DNA of 64,000 nucleotides, taken from an uncultured Anaerolineales bacterium (GTDB lineage: Bacteria > Chloroflexota > Anaerolineae > B4-G1 > SLSP01). Under the pieces are notes generated by a model that saw only the letters and a list, made by a program, of their open reading frames with translations, ran no database searches and had not been told where the DNA came from. Shown in pieces: positions 16,072-51,341 of the stretch. The translations under genes were made by a program, and so were the position numbers. Positions within the stretch are counted from its first letter, which is position 1; the number at the start of each line of letters is the position of its first letter. The stretch is from NCBI GenBank assembly GCA_964530185.1, contig CAZHBB010000003.1:13563-77562 (forward strand). Reading direction: 5' to 3'.

Positions 16072-18392
16072 ATACGATGGACAGAGTAGTTCGCTGGCCG
16101 GGGATTGCACGTGACCTATTGCTGATCCTGGTGGCCTTCACTATCCTGACCGCACTCTACAACCTATTTACTCCTATCTTTGAGGCCCCAGATGAAGTCT
16201 GGCACTACGCCCATCTCCGGTGGTTGGCTGAGGGACATGGATTGCCTTCTCTGATCGACGACCGCAGCGGCGCCTATCAGGAAGCCGCCCAACCCCCACT
16301 CTACTATGCCTCAGCCGCGCTTCTCAGCTACACCATTCCCGATGATGACCTTCCCTCCTTGATGTGGCACAATCCCGGTTTCGGGTTCCAGGCACCAGGG
16401 ACAGTCGCCGACAACAAGAACATGCTTATCCACACGACACGCGAGAGATGGCCCTGGCGAGGGGCGGTCCTGGCTGTCCACGTCGCCCGCCTCACCTCCT
16501 GGCTCTACGGGCTGATAGCCGTTTCCGCAGCCTGGGGCTTAGGAATGGAGACCTTCGGTGACCGCCACGGTGCTCGTCTCACCGCCGCATGGCTCGCCTT
16601 CCACCCACAGTTCGTTTTTATCTCCAGCGTGATCAACAATGACGCCGCCGCCACCGCCCTAGCCACGGTGGTGCTTTGGCGTTGTGCCCGGGCTTTGCGC
16701 CGCGGCATCCAACGATACGACAGCCTGCTATTGGGCATGGCAGTGGGGTTGGCCACCCTGGCTAAGACCAGTCTGCTGGCACTGATCCCCATCGGATTAG
16801 GGGCGATTGCCCTCGCACACGTGCTGCATCGAGGCAAGCACACGTCGTTCACCAACCGGTTCTCTCTCTCTTCTCTGGCCAGCTATCTGCTGGGCGTTGC
16901 CATCATAGGTGGATGGTGGTACGCACGCAACTGGATGCTCTACCAGGACCCACTTGGCCTTAGCACACACCTCAGAACCCCCTGGGGACGTCCAGCAACG
17001 CTTTCCCTGCCAGATCTCATCCCAGAGATCCCCCTGGTCTTGCGCTCATTCTGGGCAGCTTACGGGTGGGGACATGTGACATGGCCTCCAATCTACTACA
17101 TACTGCTCTGGACATTGGCGCTTTGCCTCATCGCCGCAGCCCTTTGGACACTGGGGCGCAACTGGTACACATGGCTTAAACGCCCTCAAGAGAAACGAGG
17201 GACAGGATTCTCCCTTCCAGAGCCATCGGTCCTGATAGCTACGCTCTCTCTCTTCTGGGCAGCCGCGATAGTCGCCGCGCTCGTCCACTGGATGCAACAG
17301 GTGGAGGCCCCTCATGGTCGCCTCCTCTTCCCGGCGTTAGGAAGCTGGGGGATTGTCCTCACATGGGGTGCGTTGGAGTTGCGGCATCGCTCACCCCGGC
17401 TCGGGATCCTCATCACGCGGGGCCTCCTGGGCCTCATGGCGACTTTAAGCATCCTGGCCCCAGGAGCCCGTATCGCCAGCACCTTCAGCATGCCGCGGCT
17501 CCTCTCGCCCTCAGAGATCACGACCCGGTGTGAGACACCGGTCAACCTGCATTACGACGAGCTCGCCCAGCTCTCATGCTTGAAGATCGAGCCACAGCGA
17601 GTCAGGGTAGGAGAAAAGGTCGCCGTAAGCGCCTGCTGGATCGCCCTGGCTCCTATCGAGCGAGACTACACCGTCTTCGTGCACATCCTGGGTCCAGATA
17701 TGATGCGCGTTGGAGAGCGTCATACATATCCAGGGCTGGGCAGGTATCCTACGACACTGTGGTCACCCGGATTGGGGTTCTGTGAGACCTATCGTGTGCA
17801 GATCTCCACCTGGGCTGAGGCCCCCCTGCGCTATCAGGTGGAAATTGGCCTATTCGAGCCCGAGACCGGCGCACGACTGCCCGTCACTGATGCCCTGGGC
17901 CACTCTATGGCTCCCCCGGTGGCAGGGCACCTGGTGATCACGCCACTTGAACCCTTCGAGCCAAGACCCAGCCGCTTACTCGCTGCCCACCTAGGTGAAG
18001 GGATTGAATTACTCGGTGCAGATATTCCCTCAGGCGCTCAAATCGGCGACCGCGTCCCCATCACCCTCTATTGGAAGGCCAAACACACTCTCGCCCACGA
18101 CTATGTCGCTTTCGTCCACCTGTGGCGACCTGGGGACAACGCACCTCTCGCACAACACGACAGTCAGCCCCGCGCAGGTTGGTATCCAGTATCCGCGTGG
18201 GGCCCCAACGACGTCATATCGGACACACACATCCTGGAGATTCCCTCGGCGATGACACCTGGCACGTACCCCTTATGGGCCGGGCTGTACGATCCCGTGG
18301 ATGGGACGCGGCTTGCAGCCTATGGCCCGGACGGGCGTTACACGGACGACTTAGTCCCCCTCGGCACAATCGAAGTGCAATCACCGCCCTAA
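16068..18392 (+). CDS. GT-C-fold membrane glycosyltransferase (paralogue of the upstream gene)
   Basis: The ATGA overlap with the upstream stop indicates translational coupling. An FEAPDEVWH motif is present, with the same multi-TM core and three copies of the C-terminal repeat domain (YTVFVHILGPD..., YVAFVHLWRPGD..., ...). Confidence 0.65.
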   Translation: MNTMDRVVRWPGIARDLLLILVAFTILTALYNLFTPIFEAPDEVWHYAHLRWLAEGHGLPSLIDDRSGAYQEAAQPPLYYASAALLSYTIPDDDLPSLMWHNPGFGFQAPGTVADNKNMLIHTTRERWPWRGAVLAVHVARLTSWLYGLIAVSAAWGLGMETFGDRHGARLTAAWLAFHPQFVFISSVINNDAAATALATVVLWRCARALRRGIQRYDSLLLGMAVGLATLAKTSLLALIPIGLGAIALAHVLHRGKHTSFTNRFSLSSLASYLLGVAIIGGWWYARNWMLYQDPLGLSTHLRTPWGRPATLSLPDLIPEIPLVLRSFWAAYGWGHVTWPPIYYILLWTLALCLIAAALWTLGRNWYTWLKRPQEKRGTGFSLPEPSVLIATLSLFWAAAIVAALVHWMQQVEAPHGRLLFPALGSWGIVLTWGALELRHRSPRLGILITRGLLGLMATLSILAPGARIASTFSMPRLLSPSEITTRCETPVNLHYDELAQLSCLKIEPQRVRVGEKVAVSACWIALAPIERDYTVFVHILGPDMMRVGERHTYPGLGRYPTTLWSPGLGFCETYRVQISTWAEAPLRYQVEIGLFEPETGARLPVTDALGHSMAPPVAGHLVITPLEPFEPRPSRLLAAHLGEGIELLGADIPSGAQIGDRVPITLYWKAKHTLAHDYVAFVHLWRPGDNAPLAQHDSQPRAGWYPVSAWGPNDVISDTHILEIPSAMTPGTYPLWAGLYDPVDGTRLAAYGPDGRYTDDLVPLGTIEVQSPP

Positions 18393-18427: not shown

Positions 18428-19480
18428 TCACGAACCCACGGTCTGCCTTGAAACAGGTCTGCGTGCCATTGCCCGCAAACTCGACCAACCAGGACCAGCG
18501 CTGAAAAGCGCACTCAGAGCCATACAGATCGCAGAAGTGAGACACCAGGCGCAGGTTGCGCCGATGACAAAAGGCTCCAAGAACGTAAGGTAGATAGAAA
18601 AAGTCAACCCGAAAAGCGACATGAGCAGTCTGAGCGCAGAAGCGTACGTCTTGACAGTAGCCTGCCCCCATGCCACCAACGCTGTTGTCCCCAAGAGAGC
18701 CACATAACCCAACACCCCCAGGACAGCGACCGGCACCACACCAAAGAGCATTGCATACTGGCTCTGCTGTACAGCATTGCAATCGCCGACCGGACCACAG
18801 ACCGCCGTGCTCCCTGTTGTCTCGACGTAAGCCAAGTACGAGGCGGCACCGAGCCCGACTAGAAGTACCAAGAATAGCCCGCCAGCGCCGACGCGCTTCG
18901 CCAACGCTTCCTGCCAACCCCGTGGCTTGATCACCAGAATCAGGACAACGGTTAGCCCCACCAGCACCAACGTGGACAAAGTGTTCCCGACCGGGTCCTG
19001 CAGGAACCGGGCCCGCCAATCTCGATTTACCACCCCATTATCCCCTTCCAAACTGCGTACAGCTTCGACCATCCCAGGCAGGTCTGGCCAATCTGTCCCC
19101 CCCTGTTGCAGGGCATCATCGATAAGCCCCGGTAACTCAGTTGGAATATCCCGCGAGCCCACCAGGATATGCTCTCCAATGATCGCTGTCGGGACACCTA
19201 CCAACGAGGGGTGGTACTTGTCTACCACTGCATGGAATAACCTCTGACCATCAGGAGTGCTGATGTCGATCAGAGCAACGCGCAATTGATCCCCGTAATG
19301 GGACTGTAACGGCGGGAGTACCTCAGTCATCACCAGATGGCAATGTGGACAACTGGGATGATAGAAAAGCACAACGCGTACGATGGCTTGGTCAGCACTT
19401 GCGGTAACCGGCACGCTGAGCACCAGTAGACCTACAAGAACGCACACAAGAGCTCTGGAGCACCATGTCAACGGATTCAT
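18428..19480 (-). CDS. Thioredoxin-like domain fused to a vitamin K epoxide reductase (VKOR) domain
   Basis: Signal/TM segment, then a DsbA/Trx-like domain with CPHC, then a multi-TM VKOR-like domain with a loop Cys pair (CGPVGDC) and a CAWC active site. The likely start is at MNPLTW; the ORF-track start at 19543 adds 21 aa without an RBS. Confidence 0.6.
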   Translation of the reverse strand: MNPLTWCSRALVCVLVGLLVLSVPVTASADQAIVRVVLFYHPSCPHCHLVMTEVLPPLQSHYGDQLRVALIDISTPDGQRLFHAVVDKYHPSLVGVPTAIIGEHILVGSRDIPTELPGLIDDALQQGGTDWPDLPGMVEAVRSLEGDNGVVNRDWRARFLQDPVGNTLSTLVLVGLTVVLILVIKPRGWQEALAKRVGAGGLFLVLLVGLGAASYLAYVETTGSTAVCGPVGDCNAVQQSQYAMLFGVVPVAVLGVLGYVALLGTTALVAWGQATVKTYASALRLLMSLFGLTFSIYLTFLEPFVIGATCAWCLTSAICMALSALFSAGPGWSSLRAMARRPVSRQTVGS

Positions 19481-19692
19481 CAAGTTCCCTCCAAAGACCT
19501 GCAACGAGCTTGAGCCTGAACCGTGTCGACGCAATACACTCAATCATAACCGACACTGCGCAATGGGCAATGCCCCTCAGCACAGACTTCACCAAGCCGT
19601 GTCTCGTGCCACAGACGTCATGTCGCTCACTCAGCCCACTAACTCTCAGGCAGGAGCACGCCCCCAGAGGGCATGCCAGCCTCGAAATTGTG

Positions 19693-32754: not shown

Positions 32755-33025
32755 ACCATCTCCCCTAACCGTTCGATGCCCCAAATTCTACTCGAGTTCA
32801 CATGGAAGACAAGACGTAATCGTTCACAGTCCCTTCGCTGCGATGATCTGTTACGACGGAACTTGGGAGGAAAGGGGGCGTTCTTCACCCTTCCGTAATC
32901 CCTTTGTAACAACAAACCTGCCCCCCTGCTGTACAATGAATGTAGCATGTAAGTGCAGTTTTGTGAGTTTGGTGTAGGATTCTGGAAGAATTATACGTTT
33001 CTTAGCTTATGCGAGGAGGATCGAG

Positions 33026-34036
33026 ATGATCAAGAGGCGCTGGTTACCGCTCGTGGTGGTTCTTACTATTCTTGTCGGTCTATTGCCTCAGATGGTAGCG
33101 GCCCAAAGTCCAAACTATTACACGTCCGTTATCCTGAGCGACATTACATCCGGCGCACCAGTGGTCGGTGGTACATTCACGACTGATCTGAGCCTGTCAA
33201 TTGTGAATAATGCCACCCCACAACTCGGGGTGATGGGCGCAGATGTCTGGATCCGCTTTGATCCCACGATCTTAGCCGTGGATGATGCAGACGACAATCC
33301 CGCCAACGGCATTCAAGTTAGCATTTCGACCGAGTTCTTCGGCGGCTCCGTATTTGTCGCCGCCAACGAGGTCACCACCTGCCCCAGCGGTGGAACCTGC
33401 GTCCATCTGGCATTGAGTCACTCGGGCGCCCCTATCACCAACCGCACCGGAAAAATCGCTACGATCACATGGGCTGGACTGGCAGCGGGAGACGGGGGAC
33501 TTGAGGTCGCACTTCCGGAGACGGTGCTTGCTGACGTGAACGGGGCAGACGTCCCGATCAACAGCACCACCGTACCCGCTATCGCCGTAGTGGAGCCGGG
33601 GACCATCTCGGGTAAGGTTCTGCGTCAGGGGACACGGACCGATCACGCCAATACTGAGGTCGTGGCCTACAACACAGGTGGTGGCGTTGTTGGCACTGCC
33701 ACAACCCTGGCTGATGGTAGCTTCGAGCTGATTGTGCCGATCGGGGGATCCTACCTGGTCCAGGCATCTTACAACGGCTACCTTAAGGCACAGAAGAGCA
33801 GCGTCTATGTGGTGGGAGCTGCTGTTGATCTAGGGACCACCACCATCCTGGGCGGCGATGTCAACGGCGACAACAACGTCAACATCCTCGATATCGTGAC
33901 GATCATCAGCCGCTACGGGACCACAGGCTGGGCCCCAACTGAGCCCGCCGACATCAATGATGACGGCGAAGTGAACATCTTCGATCTGACAATCGCAGCA
34001 GGCAACTTTGGCCGCTACGGCCCGCTGGGATGGTAA
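33026..34036 (+). CDS. Secreted cohesin-like domain / carboxypeptidase-regulatory-like domain / dockerin protein
   Basis: Signal peptide and a GAGGAGG RBS. A cohesin-like beta-sandwich lies at the N-terminus, followed by a CarboxypepD_reg-like domain (GTISGKVL...DGSFEL...GSYLVQASYNGY). The C-terminus has two dockerin calcium-binding repeats (DVNGDNNVNILD, DINDDGEVNIFD). Confidence 0.65.
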   Translation: MIKRRWLPLVVVLTILVGLLPQMVAAQSPNYYTSVILSDITSGAPVVGGTFTTDLSLSIVNNATPQLGVMGADVWIRFDPTILAVDDADDNPANGIQVSISTEFFGGSVFVAANEVTTCPSGGTCVHLALSHSGAPITNRTGKIATITWAGLAAGDGGLEVALPETVLADVNGADVPINSTTVPAIAVVEPGTISGKVLRQGTRTDHANTEVVAYNTGGGVVGTATTLADGSFELIVPIGGSYLVQASYNGYLKAQKSSVYVVGAAVDLGTTTILGGDVNGDNNVNILDIVTIISRYGTTGWAPTEPADINDDGEVNIFDLTIAAGNFGRYGPLGW

Positions 34037-34068
34037 ACGGCCAATCGACCAAGTAGGGGGATAAAGTC

Positions 34069-35088
34069 ATGAAGTCCAATCGAGTGTTACGTTTGCTAAG
34101 CGCATGGCTCCTGCTCGCACTTGCTCTGTTGAGCACGCCAACGCCCCAGGCTCTGGCGGCCGATCCGGTCGTCAAGATCGTGCCCGCCACCAGCACCATC
34201 CAGGTAGGAGAGACCGTCGTGGTGAGCGTGACGGTGGAAAACGTCAGCAACCTCTTTGGAGCCGAATTCCATCTCTCCTTCGACGCCAGTATCCTCGAGG
34301 TCGTTGACGCCGACGCAGGCACCGGAGGCATCCAGATCAGCATGGGGGACTTCCTTGCTCCGGATTTCGTGGCCCAGAACCTGGCTGACAACGCCACTGG
34401 GACCATCGACTTCGCCATCTCTCAAATGGCCCCCCACGCTGCAGTGAGCGGCAGCGGCACACTGGCCACGATCACCTTCAAGGGCAAGGCGGCCGGGACA
34501 GCCAGCGTGAGCTTCACCAGCGTTTTGCTGGCGGACGCGGGCGGAGGACAGATTCCCTCCTCCTCACAGAACGCCACTGTCACTGTGACCAGCGGCGCAA
34601 CGGCAACTCCCTCACCCACCACACCGGCGCCTACGACACCGGCTCCGACCGCTTCGCCGACAACCCCACCTGCGACGACCACCCCACCCTCTTCATCATG
34701 CACTATCCAGGGGTACCACACGGTACGAGCAGGGGAGACGCTCTACTCCATCGGACGCGCCTATGCCACAGATCCCAACGCCATCGCCGCCTGCAACGGC
34801 ATTGTCAATCCCAGCCTTCTTTATGTGGGCACCCGATTGGGAATCCCAGTGGCTCCCTGGTCACCGATCCCACCCGGCCCTGTCGCAGTACGTCAGTTTA
34901 CCCCAGGTGGCAGCACGCCTGCCCCCTCGCCATCGACCGGCTGCCGTTATTACCACACAGTCCAATGGGGAGATACCCTGACCGCCATCGCACTTCGTTA
35001 TGGCTCTGACATCTGGAGCATTGGTCGCGCCAACTCCATCTACAACCTGAACCTCATCTACGCTGGACAGGTGTTGTGCATCCCATAA
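34069..35088 (+). CDS. Secreted cohesin domain protein with a Pro/Thr-rich linker and two LysM domains
   Basis: Signal peptide, then a cohesin domain (VVKIVPATSTIQVGETVVVSVTVENVSNLFGAEFHLSFDASILEV...GTLATITFKGKAAG), a PT-rich linker and two LysM repeats (YHTVRAGETLYSIGRAY..., YHTVQWGDTLTAIALRY...). Confidence 0.7.
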   Translation: MKSNRVLRLLSAWLLLALALLSTPTPQALAADPVVKIVPATSTIQVGETVVVSVTVENVSNLFGAEFHLSFDASILEVVDADAGTGGIQISMGDFLAPDFVAQNLADNATGTIDFAISQMAPHAAVSGSGTLATITFKGKAAGTASVSFTSVLLADAGGGQIPSSSQNATVTVTSGATATPSPTTPAPTTPAPTASPTTPPATTTPPSSSCTIQGYHTVRAGETLYSIGRAYATDPNAIAACNGIVNPSLLYVGTRLGIPVAPWSPIPPGPVAVRQFTPGGSTPAPSPSTGCRYYHTVQWGDTLTAIALRYGSDIWSIGRANSIYNLNLIYAGQVLCIP

Positions 35089-35115: not shown

Positions 35116-35150
35116 CAGTCGCGTCGCGGCGAGCTGCCGCGACGCGACTG
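35116..35150. repeat. 15-bp perfect GC-rich inverted repeat between convergent genes (bidirectional terminator-like hairpin)
   Basis: CAGTCGCGTCGCGGC-GAGCT-GCCGCGACGCGACTG. There is no flanking T-run. Confidence 0.4.
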
Positions 35151-35169: not shown

Positions 35170-36678
35170 TCAGTGGAACGCACAACGGTACAGGAACAGC
35201 GACACTCCAGTGAAGTAGTAAGCCTCGTCGGTGCGACACGTGGTATCCAACCATGCCTTCACCAACTCACGCGCGTCCCACAGAGCGACTTCAGAGTAAA
35301 CAAGCCATACACGTTGGGTATCCCCTACGATGCGCGCCATCTCCTGGGTGACGTAACTCTCGCCTACCTGATAGCGGCCATCCGGCAACTGCCAGTTCGT
35401 GTATGGGGCTTCCGCCCATCTCCCCAGATCGCCATCTGCATAGAACGCATACACATAATGATTGTAAGGAATCTGAAACAACAGAAGATCGTCCTGTCCA
35501 CGTCGGGCGGTAACGACTTCCACCACGCGCTCGAACTGTGGTTTGATAGGATGAGCCATCTGCATCAACAAGCCATGGAGGTTGACGATCATCAACAGGG
35601 CCAGCAGGACAGCGGCCAGCGAGGGCCATCGGCGCCTCAAGGCATCTAAGCCAACCCCACCTAAGATATAGAAAGCTGGTGCGCTCCAGATCAAATACCG
35701 ATCGGTGAAGATCGGACTGCGCAAGGAGACAAGCCACACGGCCAGTAAGGGGAGAATGAGCCAGACCCCCAACTGAACCAGCCGCACCCTCCGGCTCAAC
35801 GCCAGCCGTACGAGCCCAGCCCATACCAACAGTGCAAAAGCTGTGACGATGACCCATAGTCCCGCTTCCCCACCCCAGCTTCCCTGATAGATGCCAGCGC
35901 TCCACCCCGTCAGCAGCATCTGTGCCATCTGCTCCAGCGAATAGCGGGGAAAACCTGTCTCCCGCTGTTGCAGGAGGAGGGGAAGTTGCCACTGCAGAAG
36001 TGGAAGATAGGGCAACACGAGCCCGGCAAGCACCAGCACGCCCCCAACTAGAGCCCGGGGGTGGCGGTCCCTGCAGAGCAGGAACCAGAGTACCAACACC
36101 GGAACCAAAAGGGCTGTCAGAATGTGGCTGTAGAATGCCAAACTCGCTGCCACCAACACCATTCCCCACCATACCAGGCGAGATGTTTGACAAGCTCTAT
36201 CCAAGGCATAGCACGCCAGGAGTACCAGAAAGGGCACCCAGGTGTACATCTTGATCTCCTGGGCATACCAGACCATGTATGGTGACAGAGCCGTCAACAG
36301 TGCGGCAATCATCGCGCCTCTCTTTCCACAGAGCCGCGTTGACAACCTGAAGAGCAAAGGGACGCTCAGCACTCCCCACAGCGTCGAGAGGAACCGCATG
36401 GCATAAGGGGTATCCCCCGCAAGCTCTATCCACGCCCGTAATAACATCGAATAGAGTGGACCATTCCATCCAGGCCGTGTCAGATTTGCCAGCAGTTCAC
36501 GCCAACCGAAGAATGCAAAGCGCCATTGGTCCACCTCATCCCGCCAGAGCCCCTGGCTTTGGATACCCATGAGGCGGACCAGATACGCCAGCAGGACTAA
36601 AGCGACGAGCACCAGCGTCATCTGGACAGGATGCTGCCTATGCCTACCTTGAACACGTCGCTTGGTCAATTGGTCCAC
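35170..36678 (-). CDS. GT-C-fold glycosyltransferase, ArnT/PMT (GT39/GT83)-like
   Basis: About 12 TM helices, with a WRDEVDQ acidic motif in the first extracytoplasmic loop. The 502-aa length is typical of 4-amino-arabinose/mannosyl transferases. Confidence 0.65.
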   Translation of the reverse strand: MDQLTKRRVQGRHRQHPVQMTLVLVALVLLAYLVRLMGIQSQGLWRDEVDQWRFAFFGWRELLANLTRPGWNGPLYSMLLRAWIELAGDTPYAMRFLSTLWGVLSVPLLFRLSTRLCGKRGAMIAALLTALSPYMVWYAQEIKMYTWVPFLVLLACYALDRACQTSRLVWWGMVLVAASLAFYSHILTALLVPVLVLWFLLCRDRHPRALVGGVLVLAGLVLPYLPLLQWQLPLLLQQRETGFPRYSLEQMAQMLLTGWSAGIYQGSWGGEAGLWVIVTAFALLVWAGLVRLALSRRVRLVQLGVWLILPLLAVWLVSLRSPIFTDRYLIWSAPAFYILGGVGLDALRRRWPSLAAVLLALLMIVNLHGLLMQMAHPIKPQFERVVEVVTARRGQDDLLLFQIPYNHYVYAFYADGDLGRWAEAPYTNWQLPDGRYQVGESYVTQEMARIVGDTQRVWLVYSEVALWDARELVKAWLDTTCRTDEAYYFTGVSLFLYRCAFH

Positions 36679-45230: not shown

Positions 45231-48200
45231 TCAAGGCAGAGCATAGGCGATCACAATGCCCTGGTGAGGGTCTGTGACGACTAATGCATCTCCAGCGACG
45301 ACGATCGCCTGTGGGAAGCTCAATCCCGCGCCAGCTCTCGCACTCAGTGACCAAAGGAACGCGCCCTGATCGTCGAAAGCCAGGACCCGGCTCATCAACG
45401 GATCGGTCACCAGCAGTTGGTCACCCGCCCAACTCAAAAAAGGTTTGAGATCCGGGTTGGTGACATCCCAGCCTGGAATGCGCCACTGTCGCACGGCGAT
45501 CCCCTCAGAGGTGAAGATCTGGACCCTCTGGTTCCAGGTGTCGGCCACGGCTATCATCCCATCTTCACGCACAGCGATGCCCACTGGTTCATCCAGCTTC
45601 CCCCCAGCCTGCCCCCATCCCCCGAACTCTCGCAGGAAACGGCCACTTTGGTCGAAGATCTGGATCCGTTTGTTCCCGGTGTCCGCCACCAGAAGTCCCC
45701 CCTCTGGAGTCAGAGCAACGCCCCGCGGGCCATAGAACAGGCCCTCCGTGCCGGGCACCCCAAGCTGCACAACCTGCACGGCTCCGCCCCAGACTGCCAG
45801 GACGTTGCCCTCTGAATCAAGATGTTGGATCCGATGGTTCCACGTGTCCGCAACAAAGAGGGTGCCGTCAGCAGCGACCGCAACGTCCCAGGGTTCACTG
45901 AACTGCCCAGGCTCGGTCCCGAATCCACCGAACCCGCCAAGAACGCCCGATGGGTCCAGATGCCAGATCCGATGATTGGCCGTATCGGCTACATAGAACG
46001 TTCCATCGGGCGCTACGTCCAGCCCCCGCAGGGCTGCCCCAGGCAGTGTAACCGACCAGAGGCGCGGCAGAGCACGATCGCTCAGTCCGTAGGGATCAGG
46101 CGGGGGTGTCTCCTCAACGCGCTCGGGCGGCGCGACGCTTTGCTGCGGCCAGTCGAAAGGCCAGGCCTGGGCTGCCACATCGCGCCGCACATAGAGACGA
46201 AACTCCTTTCGATAGGGCCAGGTGTGCAATGTGAAAGGATCCACCGGATTCTTGAGCTGCGCGTAGCGGTGATAATCACGACGCCACACGATATCCCACA
46301 GTGCCCGTCTCATGGCCGGATCGGTCAACGCACGATGGACTCGCTCCCATGTGAGTCCAAAGTAGTCCTGAATGGGCCACCACAGGTAAAGATAATCGTA
46401 GTGGACGTAATCCTGTCCCAGGATGTTCTCCACCACCGTATATTGTGCGCTCCCGGCAATCACCACCGGGCATTTCTGAAGCTGCTCAGGATCAGGGGTA
46501 GTGCCGTAGAAATAGTTGTTGGGAAACTCGACCATATACCAGGTGAATGGCCATGATCCATCTTCGCCATAAGCAACCCGTACCTCATTGGCCGTGCCCG
46601 TCATCTGCCACGAGACATCACGGACCTGCTGTAGGGCAACTTTGATATCGGGCGTTGCGTGAGCGTAGACCAGGAACTCCGTAGCCAGATCATCATTGAT
46701 GAAAGAGAGCATCACCATCGTGCGCACGGTGAGGACGCTCATCAAGAGAAGGATCAAGGTGCCAAGGACCCGCAGGCTCCGGCTTCCGCCTAGACGCCGC
46801 CCACTCCAGTACAAGGCTACCACCGCTCCCACCACCCCGAGGATCCCGCCCAGCATCCGACCTAGGGAACGAAGCGTGACCAGTGCCGGTCCCGCGGGGC
46901 TCATCCCTCCCTCCAGAGCAACACGCAGATCCTGCACACTGTCTCCGACGACGAAAAAGGCTACCAAACCTAGGACCAAGCCTCCGGCCAGGGTCCAGGG
47001 CGTTCCATCCATCCAGGGCACACCAGCAAGGCCTTTGAAGAACCTCCCCAGGAGCCAACCTGCCAGGAAGATACTGGGCAACGCGATATGAACCAGCAGC
47101 CAGGGCATCTTTTCGCCGGCCCAGGTGTACGCCCCCCACGACAGACAGGTCCAACCCGCCAGGAAGAGAGGAAACAACCCGCTGGCCAACTCTTGCGCGT
47201 TCTTATCCCGCCAGCGTTCGGCGATAGCCTGCTTCAAAGCGACGAAGACCCCCACCGACGCCAGGGCCAATGAGAGGTACTCGTACAGTCCCCCGATCAG
47301 CAGGTAATAGTAAGAGGGCTGGTTGCCACGCTTGACGCCTTGCTGAGCAAGCCAGTAGGCCAGGCCGCCTACCAGGCCCGAAAGGGCACCAAAGCCCCAT
47401 GTGAAGACCGTAGTGTACAGAGTGAGGAAGATGGCATAGTGGATGGCGGCAATTCTGAGCCATTGCACGCGGTCCCACCACAGACCCACGGCGATGGAGA
47501 GTACCAACGTCCCTAGGACAACCGCCGCACTGACCCACACAGCCTCACCTGGGATGACCCCAAAGTTTCCAGTGCGCACAGCGTCGTAGACCAGGGACAT
47601 ATCCACACCGGTGCCGAATTTGATCAGAATGGCCGATCCCAACGGCAGCGTCAGCGTACCCAGGACAACCAAGAGGCTGAAAAGGCGGTTCTGACGGAGC
47701 CGAGACTCACCCATCCCTCTCACCAGGGCGATGACCGCCCCCATTGCCAGGATGGCAGCGAGGCCCGCGCTGAGTCGTGCCCATTGCGGCACAAGGACAT
47801 CCGCCAACCGACCATCACCGCTCTCGCTCAGAGGAATCTCTTGCACGGCAGCCTGCTGTAACCCCAGCCCAAAGGCCATGAGCAGGATCATCGATGTCCC
47901 CAGCAGCAAGAGCATCACGGTGCGCAATTCGGAACGCTGCCAGGGCCCGTCCCATATCCAAATCAAGAGAGGGATTGCCAGCAGACCACCGAAGATAGCG
48001 ACATAGATGTACGAGGCCTCCTTAGTGGCATGCATGATGGAAAAGAACGCTGCCATCCACGCCAGCCAGTGTCTCTTGCCCGATGACAGGAAACTGAAGA
48101 TCGTCCAGAGTAGGCAGACAGCCGCCAGCATCAGAAGCACATCGTGGCGGGCATAGCGGGCGTAGTACGTCATTGACGGCGAAATCAACAGCAGCATCGA

Positions 48201-48539
48201 GGTCGTCAGCGCACCAGCCGGCGAGAGCCAGCGACGGAACAGGATCGGTGCCATAACCAGCAGGACCCCGGCCAGCGCCGGCACAACGCGCGAAGTGAAG
48301 TCATTTGGGCCCAACAGATGATATGTCAACGCCGTAAGCTCGAAGAGCAGAGGGCCGTGCATCATGGGATTGTGTTGAAAGCCCAGACCTGAGTAGAGAT
48401 TCCAGGAGAACTTAGTGTGAATACTCTCGTCGTGACTGATTGCCCGCTCGCCCAACGCATAGAAACGCGTGAAGAGGGCAAGCACCAACAGGACCAGGTA
48501 CAGAACACGCTCCCAACGGCTTAGTGGATGCTCCGTCAT
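45231..48539 (-). CDS. GT-C-fold membrane glycosyltransferase-like protein fused to a C-terminal NHL-repeat beta-propeller
   Basis: The N-terminal polytopic region has an HDESIH motif in loop 1, as in the TIGR03663 / PMT-like GT-C family. The C-terminal roughly 300 aa contain at least five NHL repeats (ADTANHRIWHLD, ADTWNHRIQHLD, ADTGNKRIQIFD, ADTWNQRVQIFT ...). The start at MTEHPL is preceded by GGGAGA. Confidence 0.6.
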   Translation of the reverse strand: MTEHPLSRWERVLYLVLLVLALFTRFYALGERAISHDESIHTKFSWNLYSGLGFQHNPMMHGPLLFELTALTYHLLGPNDFTSRVVPALAGVLLVMAPILFRRWLSPAGALTTSMLLLISPSMTYYARYARHDVLLMLAAVCLLWTIFSFLSSGKRHWLAWMAAFFSIMHATKEASYIYVAIFGGLLAIPLLIWIWDGPWQRSELRTVMLLLLGTSMILLMAFGLGLQQAAVQEIPLSESGDGRLADVLVPQWARLSAGLAAILAMGAVIALVRGMGESRLRQNRLFSLLVVLGTLTLPLGSAILIKFGTGVDMSLVYDAVRTGNFGVIPGEAVWVSAAVVLGTLVLSIAVGLWWDRVQWLRIAAIHYAIFLTLYTTVFTWGFGALSGLVGGLAYWLAQQGVKRGNQPSYYYLLIGGLYEYLSLALASVGVFVALKQAIAERWRDKNAQELASGLFPLFLAGWTCLSWGAYTWAGEKMPWLLVHIALPSIFLAGWLLGRFFKGLAGVPWMDGTPWTLAGGLVLGLVAFFVVGDSVQDLRVALEGGMSPAGPALVTLRSLGRMLGGILGVVGAVVALYWSGRRLGGSRSLRVLGTLILLLMSVLTVRTMVMLSFINDDLATEFLVYAHATPDIKVALQQVRDVSWQMTGTANEVRVAYGEDGSWPFTWYMVEFPNNYFYGTTPDPEQLQKCPVVIAGSAQYTVVENILGQDYVHYDYLYLWWPIQDYFGLTWERVHRALTDPAMRRALWDIVWRRDYHRYAQLKNPVDPFTLHTWPYRKEFRLYVRRDVAAQAWPFDWPQQSVAPPERVEETPPPDPYGLSDRALPRLWSVTLPGAALRGLDVAPDGTFYVADTANHRIWHLDPSGVLGGFGGFGTEPGQFSEPWDVAVAADGTLFVADTWNHRIQHLDSEGNVLAVWGGAVQVVQLGVPGTEGLFYGPRGVALTPEGGLLVADTGNKRIQIFDQSGRFLREFGGWGQAGGKLDEPVGIAVREDGMIAVADTWNQRVQIFTSEGIAVRQWRIPGWDVTNPDLKPFLSWAGDQLLVTDPLMSRVLAFDDQGAFLWSLSARAGAGLSFPQAIVVAGDALVVTDPHQGIVIAYALP

Positions 48540-48608
48540 GCATATCTCCCGAAATGATGTGGCCACCCAATGATAGCAGAGCCACCGAAAACCCCAACCA
48601 CGGCTGTG

Positions 48609-51341
48609 TTATGGGCTTTGTACTCTCAGCTCGAGCGGCAGATCCAACGCGTCACTTCCCGTCTCCCAGGGGATCCGGGCACCGCTGTCACCATGGTAGA
48701 GTCCTACCCTCAGGCGCACCGGCCCCTCAGACAAGGGTTGCAGCCATGTGAGTGGATGTACATCCTCGATGATCTCACCAGGGACCCAGCCTGTTGTAGG
48801 GCGGTGCCACAGAGCGGGCTCGGCATCGTGCTGCGCGACCAACGTGCCCGCTTCTGTCACCAGATGTACAAACACCTTCAAGCGCTGTGTCGCGGCTTGT
48901 GGTCCAGCCTCCCAGATCAGCGTCACCGTACACGGCGCCCCTGCCGTGAGAACCGGCTCAGGCGTGACCTCGTAGCCGCGTAACACCGCCACATCGTCCA
49001 TTCGCACGTTCAGGGCATGCGTCATGGGGGGCAGCTCAAACCGGTGCTCACCCTCCAGGATCCGAATCTGATCCAACTCCCAACTTCCACCTTCCATCTC
49101 CACCAGCAGTTGGGCCGGGCCCTCTTTTGCACTCGAGGGAACTGTCAATCGTACATGCTCCAACAGCGGCCTCCCAGGCGGTGTGCCGGAGGCAAGGGCA
49201 GGCAATGGCGTGGCAGTCAGGCGTTGCTCACCTTGCCACAGGGCCAATGTGGCCCCAGTGCATGGACAAGCCCCTTCCTCACGCCGCCACAACAACGTAA
49301 CGACCAGATCACCACCGGGCGCGAGCTCATACTCACTCAATCGGTGGCCCTCCAATTGAAGTCCCGGAAGCAGTTGACGTACTTCACCCTGCCAGGACTC
49401 TTCCGGAAGATACAGCGACGGCTCCTGCCATGGGGTCACCCGTGGTCTGACGGAACCCACGACGACAGCCGGTTGTGGCCCTGACTGAGAAACCAGATCG
49501 ACGGGGGTGATAGTCTGGTTGCCTTCGTACAACCCCGCCTCCAACCTGTGCACCAGCGGCGCGAGCCCCACTGGCAGCGGGACCAGGTGATAAGTGGAAA
49601 TGGGCTTTCCATCCCAGTGATCGGTCCCCCGCAATGTGACGTCCACCAACAGGTCATCCTCTGCAGCCACCAACACACCTTCAGAGTCGTATAGACGAAG
49701 AGCCACACTGAGGCGGGTGGGGGCTGGTTCACCATCCCAACACAGACGCATCGGTAGTGCAGCCCCGCTGATGGGGCGCTCCTGGAAAGCAACACCCACA
49801 AGGCATGGTCCTCCTCCCTCAGCACACCACGCAGGCAGCGGCCGGCAGGGCGGCATGGCTGCCATCCCTTCCATCAGGTACTCCTCCAGGAACACACCCT
49901 GGAACTGCTGTCGGGCAACCAGCCTGCCATGCCACGTCAGTGCGGCCCGGACGCTGCCATAAGCATCCAGCGCGCCACGCTCGTAGTCCAGCGCAAACAC
50001 CCGTCGTGCCCCCTGGTCCTCCAGGAGCACAGCTCCGGCATCATCCGCCCCAAACGCCTCAGGGACCATCATGGGGTGCACAAGCCCGATGTCATACTGC
50101 ACCAGAGACCAATCCGTGTGGGGGATCAGGACCACATCACCTGCTTCGCCCTCCTGGCGGAGGAAGGCCGCAACGGCCCGCACATCGGTGCGGGCATAGC
50201 GTGGATCGACTAGGTAAGCCCGTATGCCCAGCACAGAGCTCACCAGCACCGCAGCCAGCAATCCCATGCGCAGGCCGGGGTTCAGGCGAGACAGCGTTGT
50301 AAGCAGAGCGATCAGCATCCATCCACCAGGGATCAGGGCATACAGGTAGCGAGGGTGAGACTGAGGGCTCAACCACCAGATGCCCATAGAACCCAACAGA
50401 GGAATCAACCAGAGGTACACCCAGGGCTCCAGGCGAGATCTCGTGAGCCTATGCCGCACACCCTCCAACACGGCAACCCCCAACCACGCCCCCACCAGCG
50501 CCGTTGCCCGCATCAGCAGAGGGTCTGCCAGTGCCTGCGGCATCCCCATGATTTGGAAGGCCATGATCAAGCGCAACACATAGAACCACGGGGCCGGTTC
50601 ATCCAACACATTGCCCAGTCCAGCCTGAGACTGCAGAGCCATTGTCCCGACGCGCAGCACGAAGACCGCCCATGGGACCAACAGAACCCATGCTACCCCA
50701 CAAGCCGTCAACCACAGGCGCACCAGATTGCGTCCGACCTCCTGGGCAGTATCCTCCATACCTCCGAGAGGCCGCCATATTCCCAGCAGCCGCGCGGTGA
50801 CCGCCAGCAGAGCACCGCCAAGGGCGATCACGCCCCCGTAATGCGTCAGGAGCAGAGCAGCGATGGCAATACCCAGAAGCACACCCCGACCCCGCCAGTG
50901 GCGCATGTCGGCTCGCAGTGAGGGCCAGGCATGAGCCCACAACACCAGGGAGAATAGGGGTAAGAAAATATAGGCCCGTACCTCTTGACCATACACCACG
51001 ACCGGGGGTGCAAGGGCGATCAAGAGCCCTGCGACATGTCCCGCCCGAGCGCTGACCCGTCCCCGCAGGAAAGCTTGCACCACTGCGGGTAAAAGGGTGG
51101 CCGCGAGCACAGAGAGATAACGCCCGGTGAATGGCGTGCGGCCAGCGGCCATGGCCCACACCTTCAAGGCCACGAAATAGAGGGGGGGGTGAATATTGGA
51201 GGCGCGATCCAAAAGCAGGTCTCGCCAGGGTAGTCCAGCAAGGTGAAGGCTGATCCCCTCATCCCACCAGATAGATTGCATCCTCAACGTGAGCGTGAGG
51301 AGTACGAACAACAGCAAAGTAGGCAGGAGCCTTCGCGTCAC
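48609..51341 (-). CDS. GT-C-fold membrane glycosyltransferase (ArnT/PMT-like) with a large repeated C-terminal domain
   Basis: GTG start. A WWDEGISLH motif is in the first loop and the polytopic core spans about 450 aa. The C-terminal roughly 450 aa carry the same repeat-domain type as the paralogues at 13786 and 16068 (LHLVTEAGTLVAQHDAEPALWHRPTTGWVPGEIIEDVHPL). Confidence 0.6.
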   Translation of the reverse strand: MTRRLLPTLLLFVLLTLTLRMQSIWWDEGISLHLAGLPWRDLLLDRASNIHPPLYFVALKVWAMAAGRTPFTGRYLSVLAATLLPAVVQAFLRGRVSARAGHVAGLLIALAPPVVVYGQEVRAYIFLPLFSLVLWAHAWPSLRADMRHWRGRGVLLGIAIAALLLTHYGGVIALGGALLAVTARLLGIWRPLGGMEDTAQEVGRNLVRLWLTACGVAWVLLVPWAVFVLRVGTMALQSQAGLGNVLDEPAPWFYVLRLIMAFQIMGMPQALADPLLMRATALVGAWLGVAVLEGVRHRLTRSRLEPWVYLWLIPLLGSMGIWWLSPQSHPRYLYALIPGGWMLIALLTTLSRLNPGLRMGLLAAVLVSSVLGIRAYLVDPRYARTDVRAVAAFLRQEGEAGDVVLIPHTDWSLVQYDIGLVHPMMVPEAFGADDAGAVLLEDQGARRVFALDYERGALDAYGSVRAALTWHGRLVARQQFQGVFLEEYLMEGMAAMPPCRPLPAWCAEGGGPCLVGVAFQERPISGAALPMRLCWDGEPAPTRLSVALRLYDSEGVLVAAEDDLLVDVTLRGTDHWDGKPISTYHLVPLPVGLAPLVHRLEAGLYEGNQTITPVDLVSQSGPQPAVVVGSVRPRVTPWQEPSLYLPEESWQGEVRQLLPGLQLEGHRLSEYELAPGGDLVVTLLWRREEGACPCTGATLALWQGEQRLTATPLPALASGTPPGRPLLEHVRLTVPSSAKEGPAQLLVEMEGGSWELDQIRILEGEHRFELPPMTHALNVRMDDVAVLRGYEVTPEPVLTAGAPCTVTLIWEAGPQAATQRLKVFVHLVTEAGTLVAQHDAEPALWHRPTTGWVPGEIIEDVHPLTWLQPLSEGPVRLRVGLYHGDSGARIPWETGSDALDLPLELRVQSP

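What the first reader, a model, noticed from the sequence alone, without database searches (positions are those of the whole stretch)
33026..35088. Two-gene cohesin/dockerin module with a LysM wall anchor and no enzyme component
The first gene encodes signal peptide, cohesin-like domain, carboxypeptidase-regulatory-like domain and a canonical duplicated dockerin. The second encodes signal peptide, cohesin, a Pro/Thr linker and two LysM domains. Together they look like a minimal scaffoldin system: a LysM-anchored cohesin receptor and a dockerin-bearing partner that itself carries a cohesin. No glycoside hydrolase is attached, so this would be a structural or adhesive assembly rather than a cellulosome.
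Basis: partly seen in the sequence, partly recalled or inferred. Interest (0 to 1): 0.6.

Follow-up and report, generated by a model that had tools for sequence, protein, structure and literature searches.

The report
LysM-anchored cohesin–dockerin docking pair
Two adjacent genes of an uncultured Anaerolineae bacterium encode a cell-wall-anchored "socket" protein and a "plug-plus-socket" adaptor that probably snap together on the cell surface; it is a cellulosome-style docking system that, in related bacteria, sits beside genes for proteases and wall enzymes rather than cellulases.

Summary
Both ORFs lie exactly where stated. P1 (33026-34036) has a signal peptide, a cohesin, a CarboxypepD_reg beta-sandwich and a duplicated dockerin. 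P2 (34069-35088) has a signal peptide, a cohesin, a Pro/Thr linker and two LysM domains. P1's beta-sandwich plus dockerin matches the X-module-dockerin dyads of cellulosomal scaffoldins. Full-length P1 matches the C-terminal cohesin-X-dockerin fragment of C. thermocellum CipA (Foldseek E 1e-19).

In 31 of 32 evaluable Anaerolineae/Chloroflexota genome loci, a cohesin-LysM gene follows the P1-like gene. The dockerin Ca2+ loops are intact in 105 of 120 homologs.

Most likely, P2 anchors to peptidoglycan and P1 is a one-cohesin adaptor docked onto it. P1-P2 binding is inferred, not shown.

Clusters in relatives encode dockerin-tagged S8 and M6-like proteases and a peptidoglycan amidase. The same cohesin-X-dockerin cassette ends many proteases elsewhere. 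No cargo gene lies in this 64-kb window.

This is a new variant of a known kind: non-cellulosomal, LysM-anchored rather than SLH- or sortase-anchored, and undescribed in the literature I could search. Interest is moderate.

The parts
32885..32938 (+). Conserved upstream element of the operon: a GTAAT (32895-32899) / GTAAC (32906-32910) repeat, then 22 nt after the TTGTAA at 32904-32909, then TACAAT (32932-32937). Probably a -10 box plus a regulator site.
   Evidence: An alignment of 260-nt leaders from 16 two-gene-layout loci shows invariant columns only here and at the RBS. The motif is unique in the window, although one match is about what chance gives (expected 0.73). The sigma-70 scan did not call it, because the spacing is 22 nt. 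Function is inferred.
33013..33019 (+). Ribosome-binding site of P1 (GAGGAGG, 6 nt before the ATG)
   Evidence: Read from the sequence; conserved in relatives.
33026..34036 (+). P1 gene: secreted cohesin - X-module - dockerin protein (336 aa)
   Evidence: ORF. Pfam. AF2 pLDDT 91.1, pTM 0.76. Foldseek full-length hits to 4fl4_C and 3kcp_A at E 1e-19. 248 homologs, all from Anaerolineae/Chloroflexota.
33026..33103 (+). P1 signal peptide (aa 1-26, MIKRRW...QMVAA|Q)
   Evidence: Sequence features. AF2 shows a helix at aa 6-18 followed by a low-confidence segment at aa 21-27. The mature N-terminus QSPNxYTS is conserved across the family. The cleavage site is inferred.
33107..33595 (+). P1 cohesin domain (aa ~28-190)
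   Evidence: Pfam Cohesin is sub-threshold at 16.1 bits. phmmer against P2's cohesin gives E 9e-9. hhalign gives 98.5%, E 2e-15. Foldseek matches cohesins.
33596..33829 (+). P1 X-module-like beta-sandwich (aa ~191-268; Pfam CarboxypepD_reg)
   Evidence: PF13620 at 34.4 bits. The family profile aligns across this domain and the dockerin to X-Doc chains 2b59_B (E 1e-12), 5g5d_B, 4u3s_B and 4wi0_B. Foldseek TMt is 0.68-0.74 to X-Doc chains.
33830..34033 (+). P1 dockerin (aa ~269-336). Ca loops are at 33857-33892 (DVNGDNNVNILD) and 33950-33985 (DINDDGEVNIFD).
   Evidence: PF00404 at 34.6 bits. All 34 aligned members match it. Both strict loops are present in 105 of 120 homologs.
34055..34061 (+). 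Ribosome-binding site of P2 (AGGGGGA), inside the 32-nt intergenic gap
   Evidence: Read from the sequence. No terminator-like site lies between the genes.
34069..35088 (+). P2 gene: secreted cohesin - Pro/Thr linker - LysM - LysM protein (339 aa)
   Evidence: ORF. Pfam. AF2 pLDDT 85.6. 220 homologs.
34069..34158 (+). P2 signal peptide (aa 1-30, ...PQALA|AD)
   Evidence: Sequence features. AF2 shows a helix at aa 3-21. A30 is nearly invariant. The cleavage site is inferred.
34165..34584 (+). P2 cohesin (aa ~33-172)
   Evidence: PF00963 at 51.1 bits. The PDB profile search gives 3l8q at 2e-15. Foldseek TMt is 0.80 to 2xdh and 0.75-0.79 to type I cohesins.
34585..34692 (+). P2 Pro/Thr-rich linker (aa ~173-208)
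   Evidence: Sequence composition. AF2 pLDDT is below 50 for aa 189-206. Its length varies among homologs.
34705..34848 (+). P2 LysM domain 1 (aa ~213-260)
   Evidence: PF01476. The AF2 model shows a beta-alpha-alpha-beta pattern at 213-260.
34849..34947 (+). Conserved inter-LysM segment (aa ~261-293, ...APWSPIPPGPVAVRQFTPG...)
   Evidence: Conserved columns P263, P268, G270, Q276 and F277 in alignment A2. Role unknown.
34948..35085 (+). P2 LysM domain 2 (aa ~294-339), flanked by invariant Cys292 and Cys337
   Evidence: PF01476 best stretch at aa 296-339. C292 and C337 are invariant. 108 of 120 homologs end in ...CIP.
35116..35150 (.). GC-rich hairpin with a 15-bp stem between the convergent P2 and PMT_2 genes; a likely bidirectional terminator
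   Evidence: RNA fold gives dG -41.3 kcal/mol and z -5.8; none of 200 shuffles folds as well. There is no U-tract, so the consensus terminator scan did not call it.

Best explanation
This is a two-gene operon for a wall-anchored, two-tier cohesin-dockerin docking platform in an uncultured Anaerolineae (Chloroflexota) bacterium.

Proposed mechanism:
1. Both proteins are exported through Sec (inferred from the N-termini).
2. P2 binds peptidoglycan non-covalently through its two C-terminal LysM domains. It holds its N-terminal cohesin away from the wall on a ~35-residue Pro/Thr spacer. This is inferred from the domain make-up.
3. P1's C-terminal X-module-dockerin dyad binds two Ca2+ ions and plugs into P2's cohesin. 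This is inferred from near-obligate gene pairing and from structural similarity to the CipA X-Doc / anchoring-cohesin system.
4. P1 thereby presents its own N-terminal cohesin as a second socket.
5. That socket most likely recruits dockerin-tagged secreted proteins encoded elsewhere in the genome. Relatives' clusters suggest these are proteases and peptidoglycan hydrolases rather than cellulases.

In cellulosome terms, P2 works like an anchoring scaffoldin and P1 like a one-cohesin adaptor scaffoldin.
For: Domains:
- Pfam calls for both proteins.
- P1's N-terminal domain is homologous to the P2 cohesin family.

Structure:
- The P1 model is confident (pLDDT 91, pTM 0.76).
- Its best full-length Foldseek hits are 4fl4_C and 3kcp_A, at E 1e-19 over 327-337 columns. 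From my own knowledge, these are the CipA Coh9-X-DocII fragment.
- Its C-terminal half superposes on X-Doc chains 2b59_B, 4u3s_B, 4wi0_B and 5g5d_B with TMt 0.71-0.74 and rmsd 2.6-3.4 A.
- The family profile aligns to those chains across both the X-module and the dockerin, E 1e-12.

Functional constraint:
- Both strict Ca loops are present in 105 of 120 homologs, even at ~50% overall identity.

Coupling:
- A cohesin-LysM gene lies 0-3 kb downstream on the same strand in 31 of 32 evaluable genome loci. It persists across two different cluster layouts while the other genes come and go.

Operon:
- 32-nt gap, RBS before each gene, no internal terminator, a strong hairpin after P2.

Cargo:
- Dockerin-tagged S8 subtilases, an Amidase_2 and an InhA-like protease sit beside relatives' clusters.
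- Nine long proteins ending in this cassette or part of it were scanned; five carry C11, M6, M10 or M12 peptidase domains and one an Amidase_2, and none a cellulase.

Plausibility of the LysM anchor:
- Filamentous Chloroflexota have a peptidoglycan layer and use LysM fusions (PMC13319060).
- Engineered LysM-anchored mini-scaffoldins do work on B. subtilis (PMC4049913).
Against: - No binding was tested. Which cohesin (P2's, P1's own, or one elsewhere) takes P1's dockerin is inferred only from gene linkage and analogy.
- P2's cohesin is compact. Its TMt is 0.80 to the A. fulgidus non-cellulosomal cohesin and 0.54-0.69 to type II cohesins. The model shows no helix in aa 31-175. It therefore lacks the elaborations of the type II cohesins that X-Doc dyads are known to bind.
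- There is no cargo gene and no second dockerin in the 64-kb window, and the rest of the genome could not be surveyed.
- One locus (L037) has a P1-like gene with no partner within 8 kb.
- LysM could bind chitin or another GlcNAc polymer rather than the cell's own wall. The best solved-structure match is the fungal chitin-binding effector Ecp6.
Confidence: 0.55

Rival explanations
1. Structural or adhesive assembly with no enzymatic cargo. P2-anchored P1 forms part of the envelope, for example a tether between peptidoglycan and the outer proteinaceous or sheath layers of a filamentous Chloroflexota cell. Alternatively it forms a head-to-tail chain, with P1's cohesin binding the dockerin of the next P1.
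For: - In the two-gene layout the only linked dockerin is P1's own, yet there are two conserved cohesins.
- P1's cohesin is conserved across both layouts (A1 mean column identity 56%), so its ligand should be present in both. P1's dockerin is.
- The two cohesins are paralogous.
- The AF2 model suggests a fairly rigid three-domain body (pTM 0.76).
- Multilayered envelopes with a proteinaceous layer are documented in a filamentous Chloroflexota member (PMC13319060).
Against: - Relatives' clusters and the wider Coh-X-Doc family are dominated by enzyme cargo: S8, M6, C11, M10 and M12 peptidases and Amidase_2.
- There is no evidence of self-binding.
- Apart from the cohesin itself, P1 has no recognisable adhesin or repeat domain.
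Confidence: 0.2
2. P1 and P2 are co-expressed surface proteins that do not bind each other. P1's dockerin engages a cohesin encoded elsewhere, or folds back on P1's own cohesin as an intramolecular clasp. P2's cohesin receives some other dockerin protein.
For: - Cohesin-dockerin specificity cannot be read from sequence.
- P2's cohesin does not look like a type II cohesin.
- L037 shows that P1-like genes can occur without a linked partner.
- The four-gene layouts contain further cohesins and dockerins that could be the true partners there.
Against: - The P1-like gene and the cohesin-LysM gene are the invariant core of the cluster. The extra cohesin and dockerin genes are optional.
- In the two-gene layout no alternative partner is linked.
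- 31 of 32 loci keep the pair on the same strand and adjacent or nearly so.
Confidence: 0.15
3. It is the anchoring end of a genuine cellulosome or other polysaccharide-degrading complex. The dockerin-bearing glycoside hydrolases would be encoded outside the window.
For: - The closest solved structures are all cellulosomal.
- The genome outside the 64 kb could not be inspected.
- One relative of the cassette carries an Rv2525c-type glycoside-hydrolase-like domain.
Against: - Neither protein has a CBM, P1 has only a single cohesin, and there is no dockerin-tagged glycoside hydrolase in the window.
- Cargo seen in relatives is proteolytic or peptidoglycan-lytic.
- A published survey found no cohesin or dockerin in six other Anaerolineae genomes and judged the group a minor cellulose degrader (PMC4877987).
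Confidence: 0.07

Closest known systems
Clostridium (Acetivibrio) thermocellum CipA C-terminus (cohesin 9 - X-module - type II dockerin) bound to the anchoring scaffoldins SdbA, OlpB and Orf2p (PDB 2B59, 3KCP, 4FL4)
   Same: P1 has the same three-module order and aligns to 3kcp_A and 4fl4_C over its full length (E 1e-19). Its X-Doc half superposes on 2b59_B (TMt 0.71) and aligns by sequence profile at E 1e-12. P2 follows the same logic as an anchoring scaffoldin: a cohesin, a linker and a wall-binding module.
   Different: - P1 has one cohesin and no CBM; CipA has nine cohesins and a CBM3 (my own knowledge).
- P2 anchors by LysM, not SLH.
- P2's cohesin lacks type II elaborations.
- The host is a Chloroflexota member, not a clostridium.
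- The likely cargo is not cellulases.
Acetivibrio cellulolyticus ScaA X-Doc / ScaB cohesin adaptor system (PDB 4U3S, 4WI0, 1QZN, 3L8Q)
   Same: These are the best sequence-profile matches for P2's cohesin (3l8q, E 2e-15). They are also among the best X-Doc matches for P1. The concept is the same: an adaptor scaffoldin linking tiers.
   Different: It is a multi-cohesin, cellulolytic, SLH-anchored system. Sequence identity to it is only ~24-25%.
Non-cellulosomal cohesin-dockerin systems: Archaeoglobus fulgidus cohesin (2XDH), Clostridium perfringens cohesin modules (2JH2, 2W1N), ANME archaeal Coh/Doc proteins (PMC9012536), and those in the survey of Peer et al. 2009
   Same: Cohesin and dockerin modules are used outside cellulose degradation. 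2xdh is the best structural match to P2's cohesin (TMt 0.80). In ANME archaea the proposed cargo is also non-cellulolytic (substrate-binding proteins and S-layer proteins).
   Different: No system described in the papers I could read combines a LysM-anchored cohesin with a Coh-X-Doc adaptor as a conserved gene pair. Peer et al. 2009 could not be read here, so prior mention of similar Chloroflexi proteins cannot be excluded.
Engineered LysM-anchored mini-CipA scaffoldin displayed on Bacillus subtilis (reviewed in PMC4049913)
   Same: The design principle is the same as P2's: cohesin(s) fused to LysM for non-covalent display on peptidoglycan.
   Different: That construct is synthetic and has three cohesins and a CBM. 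Here the arrangement is natural, has two tiers, and is conserved across a bacterial lineage.

Membership tests
Cohesin domain (Pfam PF00963) | Profile match above the gathering score and a cohesin-type beta-sandwich fold, tested for P2 | tested here: met
   51.1 bits against a cut-off of 24.1. Foldseek TMt is 0.75-0.80 to solved cohesins.
Cohesin domain (Pfam PF00963) | Profile match above the gathering score, tested for P1's N-terminal domain | tested here: not met
   16.1 bits against a cut-off of 24.1. Only 9 of 34 family members match at E<=0.1.
Cohesin domain (homology and fold, independent of the Pfam threshold) | Demonstrable homology to bona fide cohesins and a cohesin fold, tested for P1's N-terminal domain | tested here: met
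   hhalign to the P2 cohesin family gives 98.5%, E 2e-15. phmmer gives E 9e-9. Foldseek hits cohesins 1zv9, 3f2l and 1g1k at E ~1e-6, and the cohesin part of 3kcp_A.
Dockerin (Pfam PF00404 Dockerin_1) | Profile match above the gathering score | tested here: met
   34.6 bits against a cut-off of 22.9. All 34 aligned homologs match.
Dockerin (Pfam PF00404 Dockerin_1) | Two tandem F-hand Ca2+-binding loops (DxNxDxxxxxxD), each followed by a helix | tested here: met
   DVNGDNNVNILD (aa 278-289) and DINDDGEVNIFD (aa 309-320). AF2 places helices at 287-295 and 318-325. Both strict loops are present in 105 of 120 homologs.
Dockerin (Pfam PF00404 Dockerin_1) | Ca2+-dependent folding and binding to a cohesin | not testable with these tools
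   Needs ITC, native PAGE with and without EDTA, or complex structure prediction.
Type II X-module-dockerin (X-Doc) dyad | An Ig-like or beta-sandwich X-module immediately N-terminal to the dockerin and packed against it | tested here: met
   The profile alignment spans both modules against 2b59_B, 5g5d_B, 4u3s_B and 4wi0_B at E 1e-12 to 3e-10. Foldseek TMt is 0.71-0.74 with rmsd 2.6-3.4 A over ~156 columns.
Type II cohesin-dockerin pair | The partner cohesin carries the type II elaborations (an extra alpha-helix and beta-flaps, about 165-175 aa). These features are recalled from my own knowledge of type II cohesin structures. | tested here: not met
   P2's cohesin is about 140 aa and the model shows no helix in aa 31-175. 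TMt is 0.80 to 2xdh and 0.75-0.79 to type I cohesins, but 0.54-0.69 to type II cohesins. By sequence profile, however, it scores best against ScaB type II cohesins.
LysM (Pfam PF01476) | Profile match and a beta-alpha-alpha-beta fold, in two copies | tested here: met
   95.3 bits over 2 stretches. The AF2 secondary structure fits at aa 213-260 and 294-338. PDB hits include Ecp6, LytE and the 4uz2 endopeptidase-related protein.
LysM (Pfam PF01476) | Binds the cell's own peptidoglycan, so that it acts as a wall anchor | not testable with these tools
   Needs a sacculus-binding assay. Chitin or other GlcNAc glycans are alternative ligands.
Anchoring scaffoldin (SdbA/OlpB/ScaE type) | Cohesin(s) plus an SLH module or a sortase LPXTG signal | tested here: not met
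   Pfam finds no SLH domain and the sequence has no LPXTG motif. LysM takes their place. A 2025 review lists SLH and sortase as the anchoring mechanisms and never mentions LysM. P2 works like an anchoring scaffoldin but is not a member of the described classes.
Cellulosome | A multi-cohesin primary scaffoldin with a CBM, plus dockerin-bearing glycoside hydrolases | tested here: not met
   P1 has a single cohesin. Neither protein has a CBM. The window holds only one dockerin. Nothing outside the window could be tested.
CarboxypepD_reg (Pfam PF13620) | Profile match above the gathering score | tested here: met
   34.4 bits against a cut-off of 32.3, which is marginal. All 34 homologs match, best E 1e-10.

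The most novel reading that the evidence does not exclude
The Coh-X-Doc cassette may be a self-propagating connector. Each protein that docks through its X-Doc brings a fresh cohesin of compatible specificity. A LysM-anchored P2 would then seed open-ended chains: P2, then P1, then P1 or an enzyme ending in Coh-X-Doc, and so on. Such chains could build a peptidoglycan-rooted protein layer that carries proteases and wall hydrolases, or that tethers the outer layers of the multilayered Chloroflexota envelope. This assembly logic differs from the fixed-valency scaffoldins of cellulosomes.
Probability: 0.15. Interest if true: 0.7.

Novelty: new variant of a known kind. Interest (0 to 1): 0.45.

Why it matters
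Cohesin-dockerin systems are understood almost entirely through cellulosomes of Firmicutes, which are anchored by SLH domains or sortase. This locus shows the same two-tier logic (anchor plus X-Doc adaptor) in uncultured Anaerolineae. These are abundant filamentous bacteria of sediments, soils and anaerobic digesters whose surface biology is poorly known.

Here the anchor is LysM and the cargo appears to be proteolytic or peptidoglycan-lytic. If the binding is confirmed, three things follow:
- It would extend the recognised anchoring repertoire.
- It would suggest how these detritus feeders keep exo-proteases at their surface.
- It would supply a small, naturally orthogonal anchor/adaptor pair (about 340 aa each) for designer surface display on any peptidoglycan-bearing cell.

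Nature would also have arrived at the LysM-scaffoldin design that engineers built for B. subtilis.

Tried and rejected
- Cargo census by homolog search: a search with P1's dockerin alone (68 aa), meant to find other dockerin-bearing proteins of the same organism, returned only four short fragments. It was useless for a cargo census.
- Second dockerin in the window: a regex for paired F-hands and phmmer with every domain against all six-frame fragments found only P1 and P2.
- Regulatory RNA in the leader or operon: Rfam at E<=1 found nothing.
- Regulon search with the conserved upstream motif: only the P1 site matched, and one match is about the chance expectation.
- Source of the sample: run and assembly accessions (SRR15988951/2, GCA_029935855, JAPOGU) are not in the paper library.
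- Peer et al. 2009 (PMC3035643), the key survey of non-cellulosomal cohesins and dockerins, is not held.
- Covariation between P1's dockerin and each cohesin, to decide the binding partner: considered and dropped. Only about 33 reliably paired loci exist, the dockerin is almost invariant, and the two layouts form two clades, so any signal would be confounded by phylogeny.
- 'P2 cohesin is type II': rejected as a firm label after the fold search, despite the sequence-profile ranking.
- A functional link to the neighbouring LspA, DksA-like and PMT_2 genes: these are syntenic only within the two-gene-layout clade, so the link is not established. O-glycosylation of the Pro/Thr linker by the adjacent PMT_2 glycosyltransferase remains a speculation.


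Full report
**1. Observation**

P1 is 33026..34036 (+, 336 aa) and P2 is 34069..35088 (+, 339 aa), with a 32-nt gap.

Pfam supports most of the domain calls above its curated cut-offs:

| Protein | Family | Bits | Cut-off | Residues |
|---|---|---|---|---|
| P1 | Dockerin_1 | 34.6 | 22.9 | 277-323 |
| P1 | CarboxypepD_reg | 34.4 | 32.3 | 193-263 |
| P1 | Cohesin | 16.1 | 24.1 | 47-180 |
| P2 | Cohesin | 51.1 | 24.1 | 38-168 |
| P2 | LysM (two copies) | 95.3 | 20.9 | ~215-259, 296-339 |

The one weak call is P1's N-terminal cohesin. Four further tests settle it:
- phmmer of P1 aa 27-190 against all six-frame fragments of the window finds P2's cohesin at E 9e-9.
- hhalign of the two family alignments gives 98.5% probability, E 2e-15, 28% identity over 153 columns.
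- 9 of 34 family members hit Pfam Cohesin on their own.
- The AF2 model matches solved cohesins.

Both Ca loops fit the canonical DxNxDxxxxxxD pattern: DVNGDNNVNILD (aa 278-289) and DINDDGEVNIFD (aa 309-320). Both N-termini look like Sec signal peptides, from sequence features only.

**2. What P1 is**

I built an alignment of 34 homologs (A1, 53-73% identity to P1). Searched as a profile against PDB sequences, its best hits are not isolated dockerins. They are X-module-dockerin dyads of scaffoldins: 2b59_B (E 1e-12), 5g5d_B, 3kcp_A/4fl4, 4u3s_B and 4wi0_B. The alignment runs through the second half of the CarboxypepD_reg domain into the dockerin.

AF2 with this alignment gives a confident model (pLDDT 91.1, pTM 0.76). 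Foldseek against the PDB returns two kinds of hit:
- The top full-length hits are 4fl4_C and 3kcp_A (E 1e-19, 327-337 aligned columns). From my own knowledge, this chain is the CipA cohesin 9 - X-module - type II dockerin fragment.
- Isolated X-Doc chains follow, at TMt 0.71-0.74 and rmsd 2.6-3.4 A.

So P1 has the module order and fold of the C-terminal end of a primary scaffoldin, reduced to a single cohesin. [quoted passage not shown]

**3. What P2 is**

The P2 family alignment (A2, 34 sequences) shows this order:
- a cohesin;
- a Pro/Thr linker of variable length;
- in 21 of 120 homologs, enough extra length (420 aa or more) for a second cohesin, which is visible in the six long members of alignment A2;
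- LysM 1;
- a conserved segment, PWSPIPPGPVAVRQF;
- LysM 2, bracketed by invariant Cys292 and Cys337.

Of 120 homologs, 108 end in ...CIP.

By sequence profile the cohesin scores best against the A. cellulolyticus ScaB type II cohesins (3l8q, E 2e-15). It scores lower against type I cohesins. The AF2 model (pLDDT 85.6, linker disordered) tells a different story. It is a compact cohesin with no helix. It is closest in structure to the non-cellulosomal A. fulgidus cohesin 2xdh (TMt 0.80) and to type I cohesins (0.75-0.79). The larger type II cohesins reach only 0.54-0.69. I therefore do not call it a type II cohesin.

The LysM domains match Ecp6, LytE and other wall-binding proteins.

**4. Are the two genes a unit?**

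Within the window they look like an operon:
- Each gene has its own RBS (GAGGAGG before P1, AGGGGGA before P2).
- No terminator-like site lies between them.
- A strong hairpin (35116-35150, dG -41 kcal/mol, z -5.8) sits between P2 and the convergent PMT_2 gene.

Elsewhere, each protein has more than 200 full-length homologs. Where the sources name them, the names are generic and the organisms are Anaerolineae or Chloroflexi. The window's own two proteins are in public collections, unnamed.

Fifty genome loci were fetched with the P1 profile, and I annotated them with tblastn and domain HMMs. Thirty-five carry a full-length P1-like gene. Three of those end before a downstream gene could be seen, or are ambiguous at the contig end. 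Of the remaining 32, 31 have a cohesin-LysM gene 0-3 kb downstream on the same strand. The exception, L037, has unrelated neighbours.

Two layouts exist:

| Layout | Gene order | Seen in |
|---|---|---|
| Two-gene (this window) | CN_hydrolase - RluD - LspA - DksA-like (minus strand), then P1 - P2, then PMT_2 (minus strand) | About 18 loci, P1 identity ~59-94% |
| Four-gene | P1-like; a ~360-aa cohesin + dockerin protein; a ~205-aa cohesin with a hydrophobic C-terminal tail; then cohesin(-cohesin)-LysM | L006, L023-L036 and others |

The middle genes of the four-gene layout are optional. The P1-like gene and the cohesin-LysM gene are the constant core.

The system is restricted to certain lineages. 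A published survey found no cohesin or dockerin in A. thermophila UNI-1 or in five other Anaerolineae genomes (PMC4877987).

**5. Constraint on the dockerin**

Across 120 homologs, down to about 50% overall identity, both strict Ca loops are present in 105, and in 116 under a relaxed pattern. The flanking helices (NILDIV..II and NIFDLTIAAGNFG) are nearly invariant. That is what a functional, partner-binding dockerin should look like.

**6. What it is for**

The window contains no second dockerin and no cargo gene. The rest of the genome could not be surveyed, and my attempt with a dockerin-only query failed. Relatives are informative, though.

Genes directly beside the core cluster encode:
- an S8 subtilase-cohesin-dockerin protein and an Amidase_2-dockerin protein (L046);
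- an S8-dockerin protein (L015);
- an InhA-like (M6) protein with two cohesins, an X-module and a dockerin, and a beta-propeller protein carrying a cohesin and a dockerin (L049).

An exhaustive profile search found 1,918 cluster representatives at E<=1e-10. Many are long proteins that end in the Coh-X-Doc cassette. Nine of these were scanned. Their N-termini carry Peptidase_C11, M12, M6 and M10 domains, an Amidase_2, an Rv2525c-type domain, or InlB-type repeats; one showed no further domain. None carries a cellulase.

The best-supported reading is therefore a peptidoglycan-rooted docking platform for secreted proteases and wall hydrolases. P2 is the anchor and P1 the adaptor.

How far each step is supported:
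- Domain identities and gene coupling: shown.
- P1 X-Doc binding to P2's cohesin: inferred.
- LysM binding to the cell's own wall: inferred.
- The identity of the cargo in this organism: extrapolated from relatives.

**7. Rivals**

- A purely structural or adhesive assembly, including a head-to-tail P1 chain or a tether to the outer envelope layers seen in filamentous Chloroflexota (PMC13319060), remains possible. In the two-gene layout there are two conserved cohesins but only one linked dockerin.
- The two proteins might not bind each other at all.
- The pair might be the anchoring end of a true cellulosome. This is the least likely rival.

The experiments that separate these readings are listed under next steps.

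**8. Comparison with known systems, and novelty**

In function, the closest system is the CipA X-Doc / SdbA-OlpB-Orf2p attachment system of C. thermocellum, together with the ScaA/ScaB adaptor system of A. cellulolyticus.

Membership in the described anchoring-scaffoldin classes fails, because P2 has no SLH module or sortase signal. The 2025 review lists SLH and sortase as the anchoring mechanisms, plus a few speculative domains, and never mentions LysM. LysM-cohesin fusions appear in the searched literature only as engineered constructs (PMC4049913; searches).

Non-cellulosomal cohesin-dockerin systems as such are known. Examples are A. fulgidus, C. perfringens and ANME archaea, and the survey of Peer et al. 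2009 as cited in PMC9012536. I could not read Peer et al., so earlier mention of related Chloroflexi proteins cannot be excluded.

I classify this as a new variant of a known kind, of moderate interest.

Noticed in passing
window 32885-32938: A conserved element lies upstream of P1 in all aligned two-gene-layout loci: a GTAAT/GTAAC repeat 11 nt apart, then TACAAT 22 nt after TTGTAA. It may be a promoter plus a regulator-binding site. It is unique in the window, but one match is about what chance gives.
   Followed up: partly
window 35116-35150: A perfect 15-bp GC-rich hairpin (dG -41 kcal/mol, z -5.8) lies between the convergent P2 and PMT_2 genes. It has no U-tract. It is a likely bidirectional terminator that the consensus scan missed.
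   Followed up: yes
P1 homologs P0058-P0120 (dockerin region); window P1 aa 284 and 331: A covarying cysteine pair. A Cys at position 7 of Ca loop 1 (DNC) co-occurs with a Cys in the C-terminal tail (RCGP): 54 homologs have both, 61 have neither, 5 have only the loop Cys, and none has only the tail Cys. This suggests a disulfide clasp tying the dockerin's tail to loop 1 in one clade. The window protein has Asn and Tyr at these positions.
   Followed up: partly
L027 10166-10783 (likewise L006 5178-5789 and others): In the four-gene layout, a ~205-aa cohesin-only protein ends in a hydrophobic segment plus a basic tail (...CNPAGALLLGALGMGLVAWPRKRVF). This looks like a membrane anchor or an unrecognised C-terminal sorting signal. 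It would be a second, membrane-proximal docking site.
   Followed up: no
L046 3899-7931 (-), L015 40-1362, L049 7509-14050: Dockerin-tagged cargo genes sit beside relatives' clusters: S8 subtilase-Coh-Doc, Amidase_2-Doc, S8-Doc, an InhA-like MAM-Coh-Coh-X-Doc protein, and a Coh-beta-propeller-Doc protein.
   Followed up: yes
window 35170-36678 (-), 45231-48566 (-); also 13669-16071, 16068-18392, 48609-51341 (-): The window is rich in very large polytopic membrane proteins. Two are PMT_2 (GT-C) glycosyltransferases, one of them fused to NHL repeats. The other three have no confident Pfam match (one has a weak DUF2142 hit). The PMT_2 gene next to P2 is syntenic within the two-gene-layout clade. 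It could glycosylate the Pro/Thr linker, but that is pure speculation.
   Followed up: partly
window 18428-19543 (-): A VKOR-family protein (77 bits) has an N-terminal extracytoplasmic region containing a CPHC motif, which suggests a thioredoxin-like fusion. An exported-protein disulfide system would fit the conserved cysteines in P1's cohesin (C119/C125) and around P2's LysM 2.
   Followed up: partly
window 11191-12135 and 12265-13140 (+): Two tandem paralogous RpiR-family regulators (HTH_6 + SIS).
   Followed up: partly
L037 5065-6129: This is the only evaluable locus where a full-length P1-like gene has no cohesin-LysM gene within 8 kb. Its neighbours are a TPR/zinc-ribbon protein, a rhomboid protease and an Fe-S flavoprotein.
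   Followed up: yes
L047 7986-10040; L014 9042-9926: In two MAGs of the 'MFD' series the P1-like and/or P2-like genes appear split or truncated by frameshifts. These could be assembly indels or pseudogenes. I did not resolve which.
   Followed up: no
L006 7496-8620, L007 4840-5964: In one four-gene-layout lineage, a CAP-domain (cysteine-rich secretory protein family) gene directly follows the cohesin-LysM gene.
   Followed up: no
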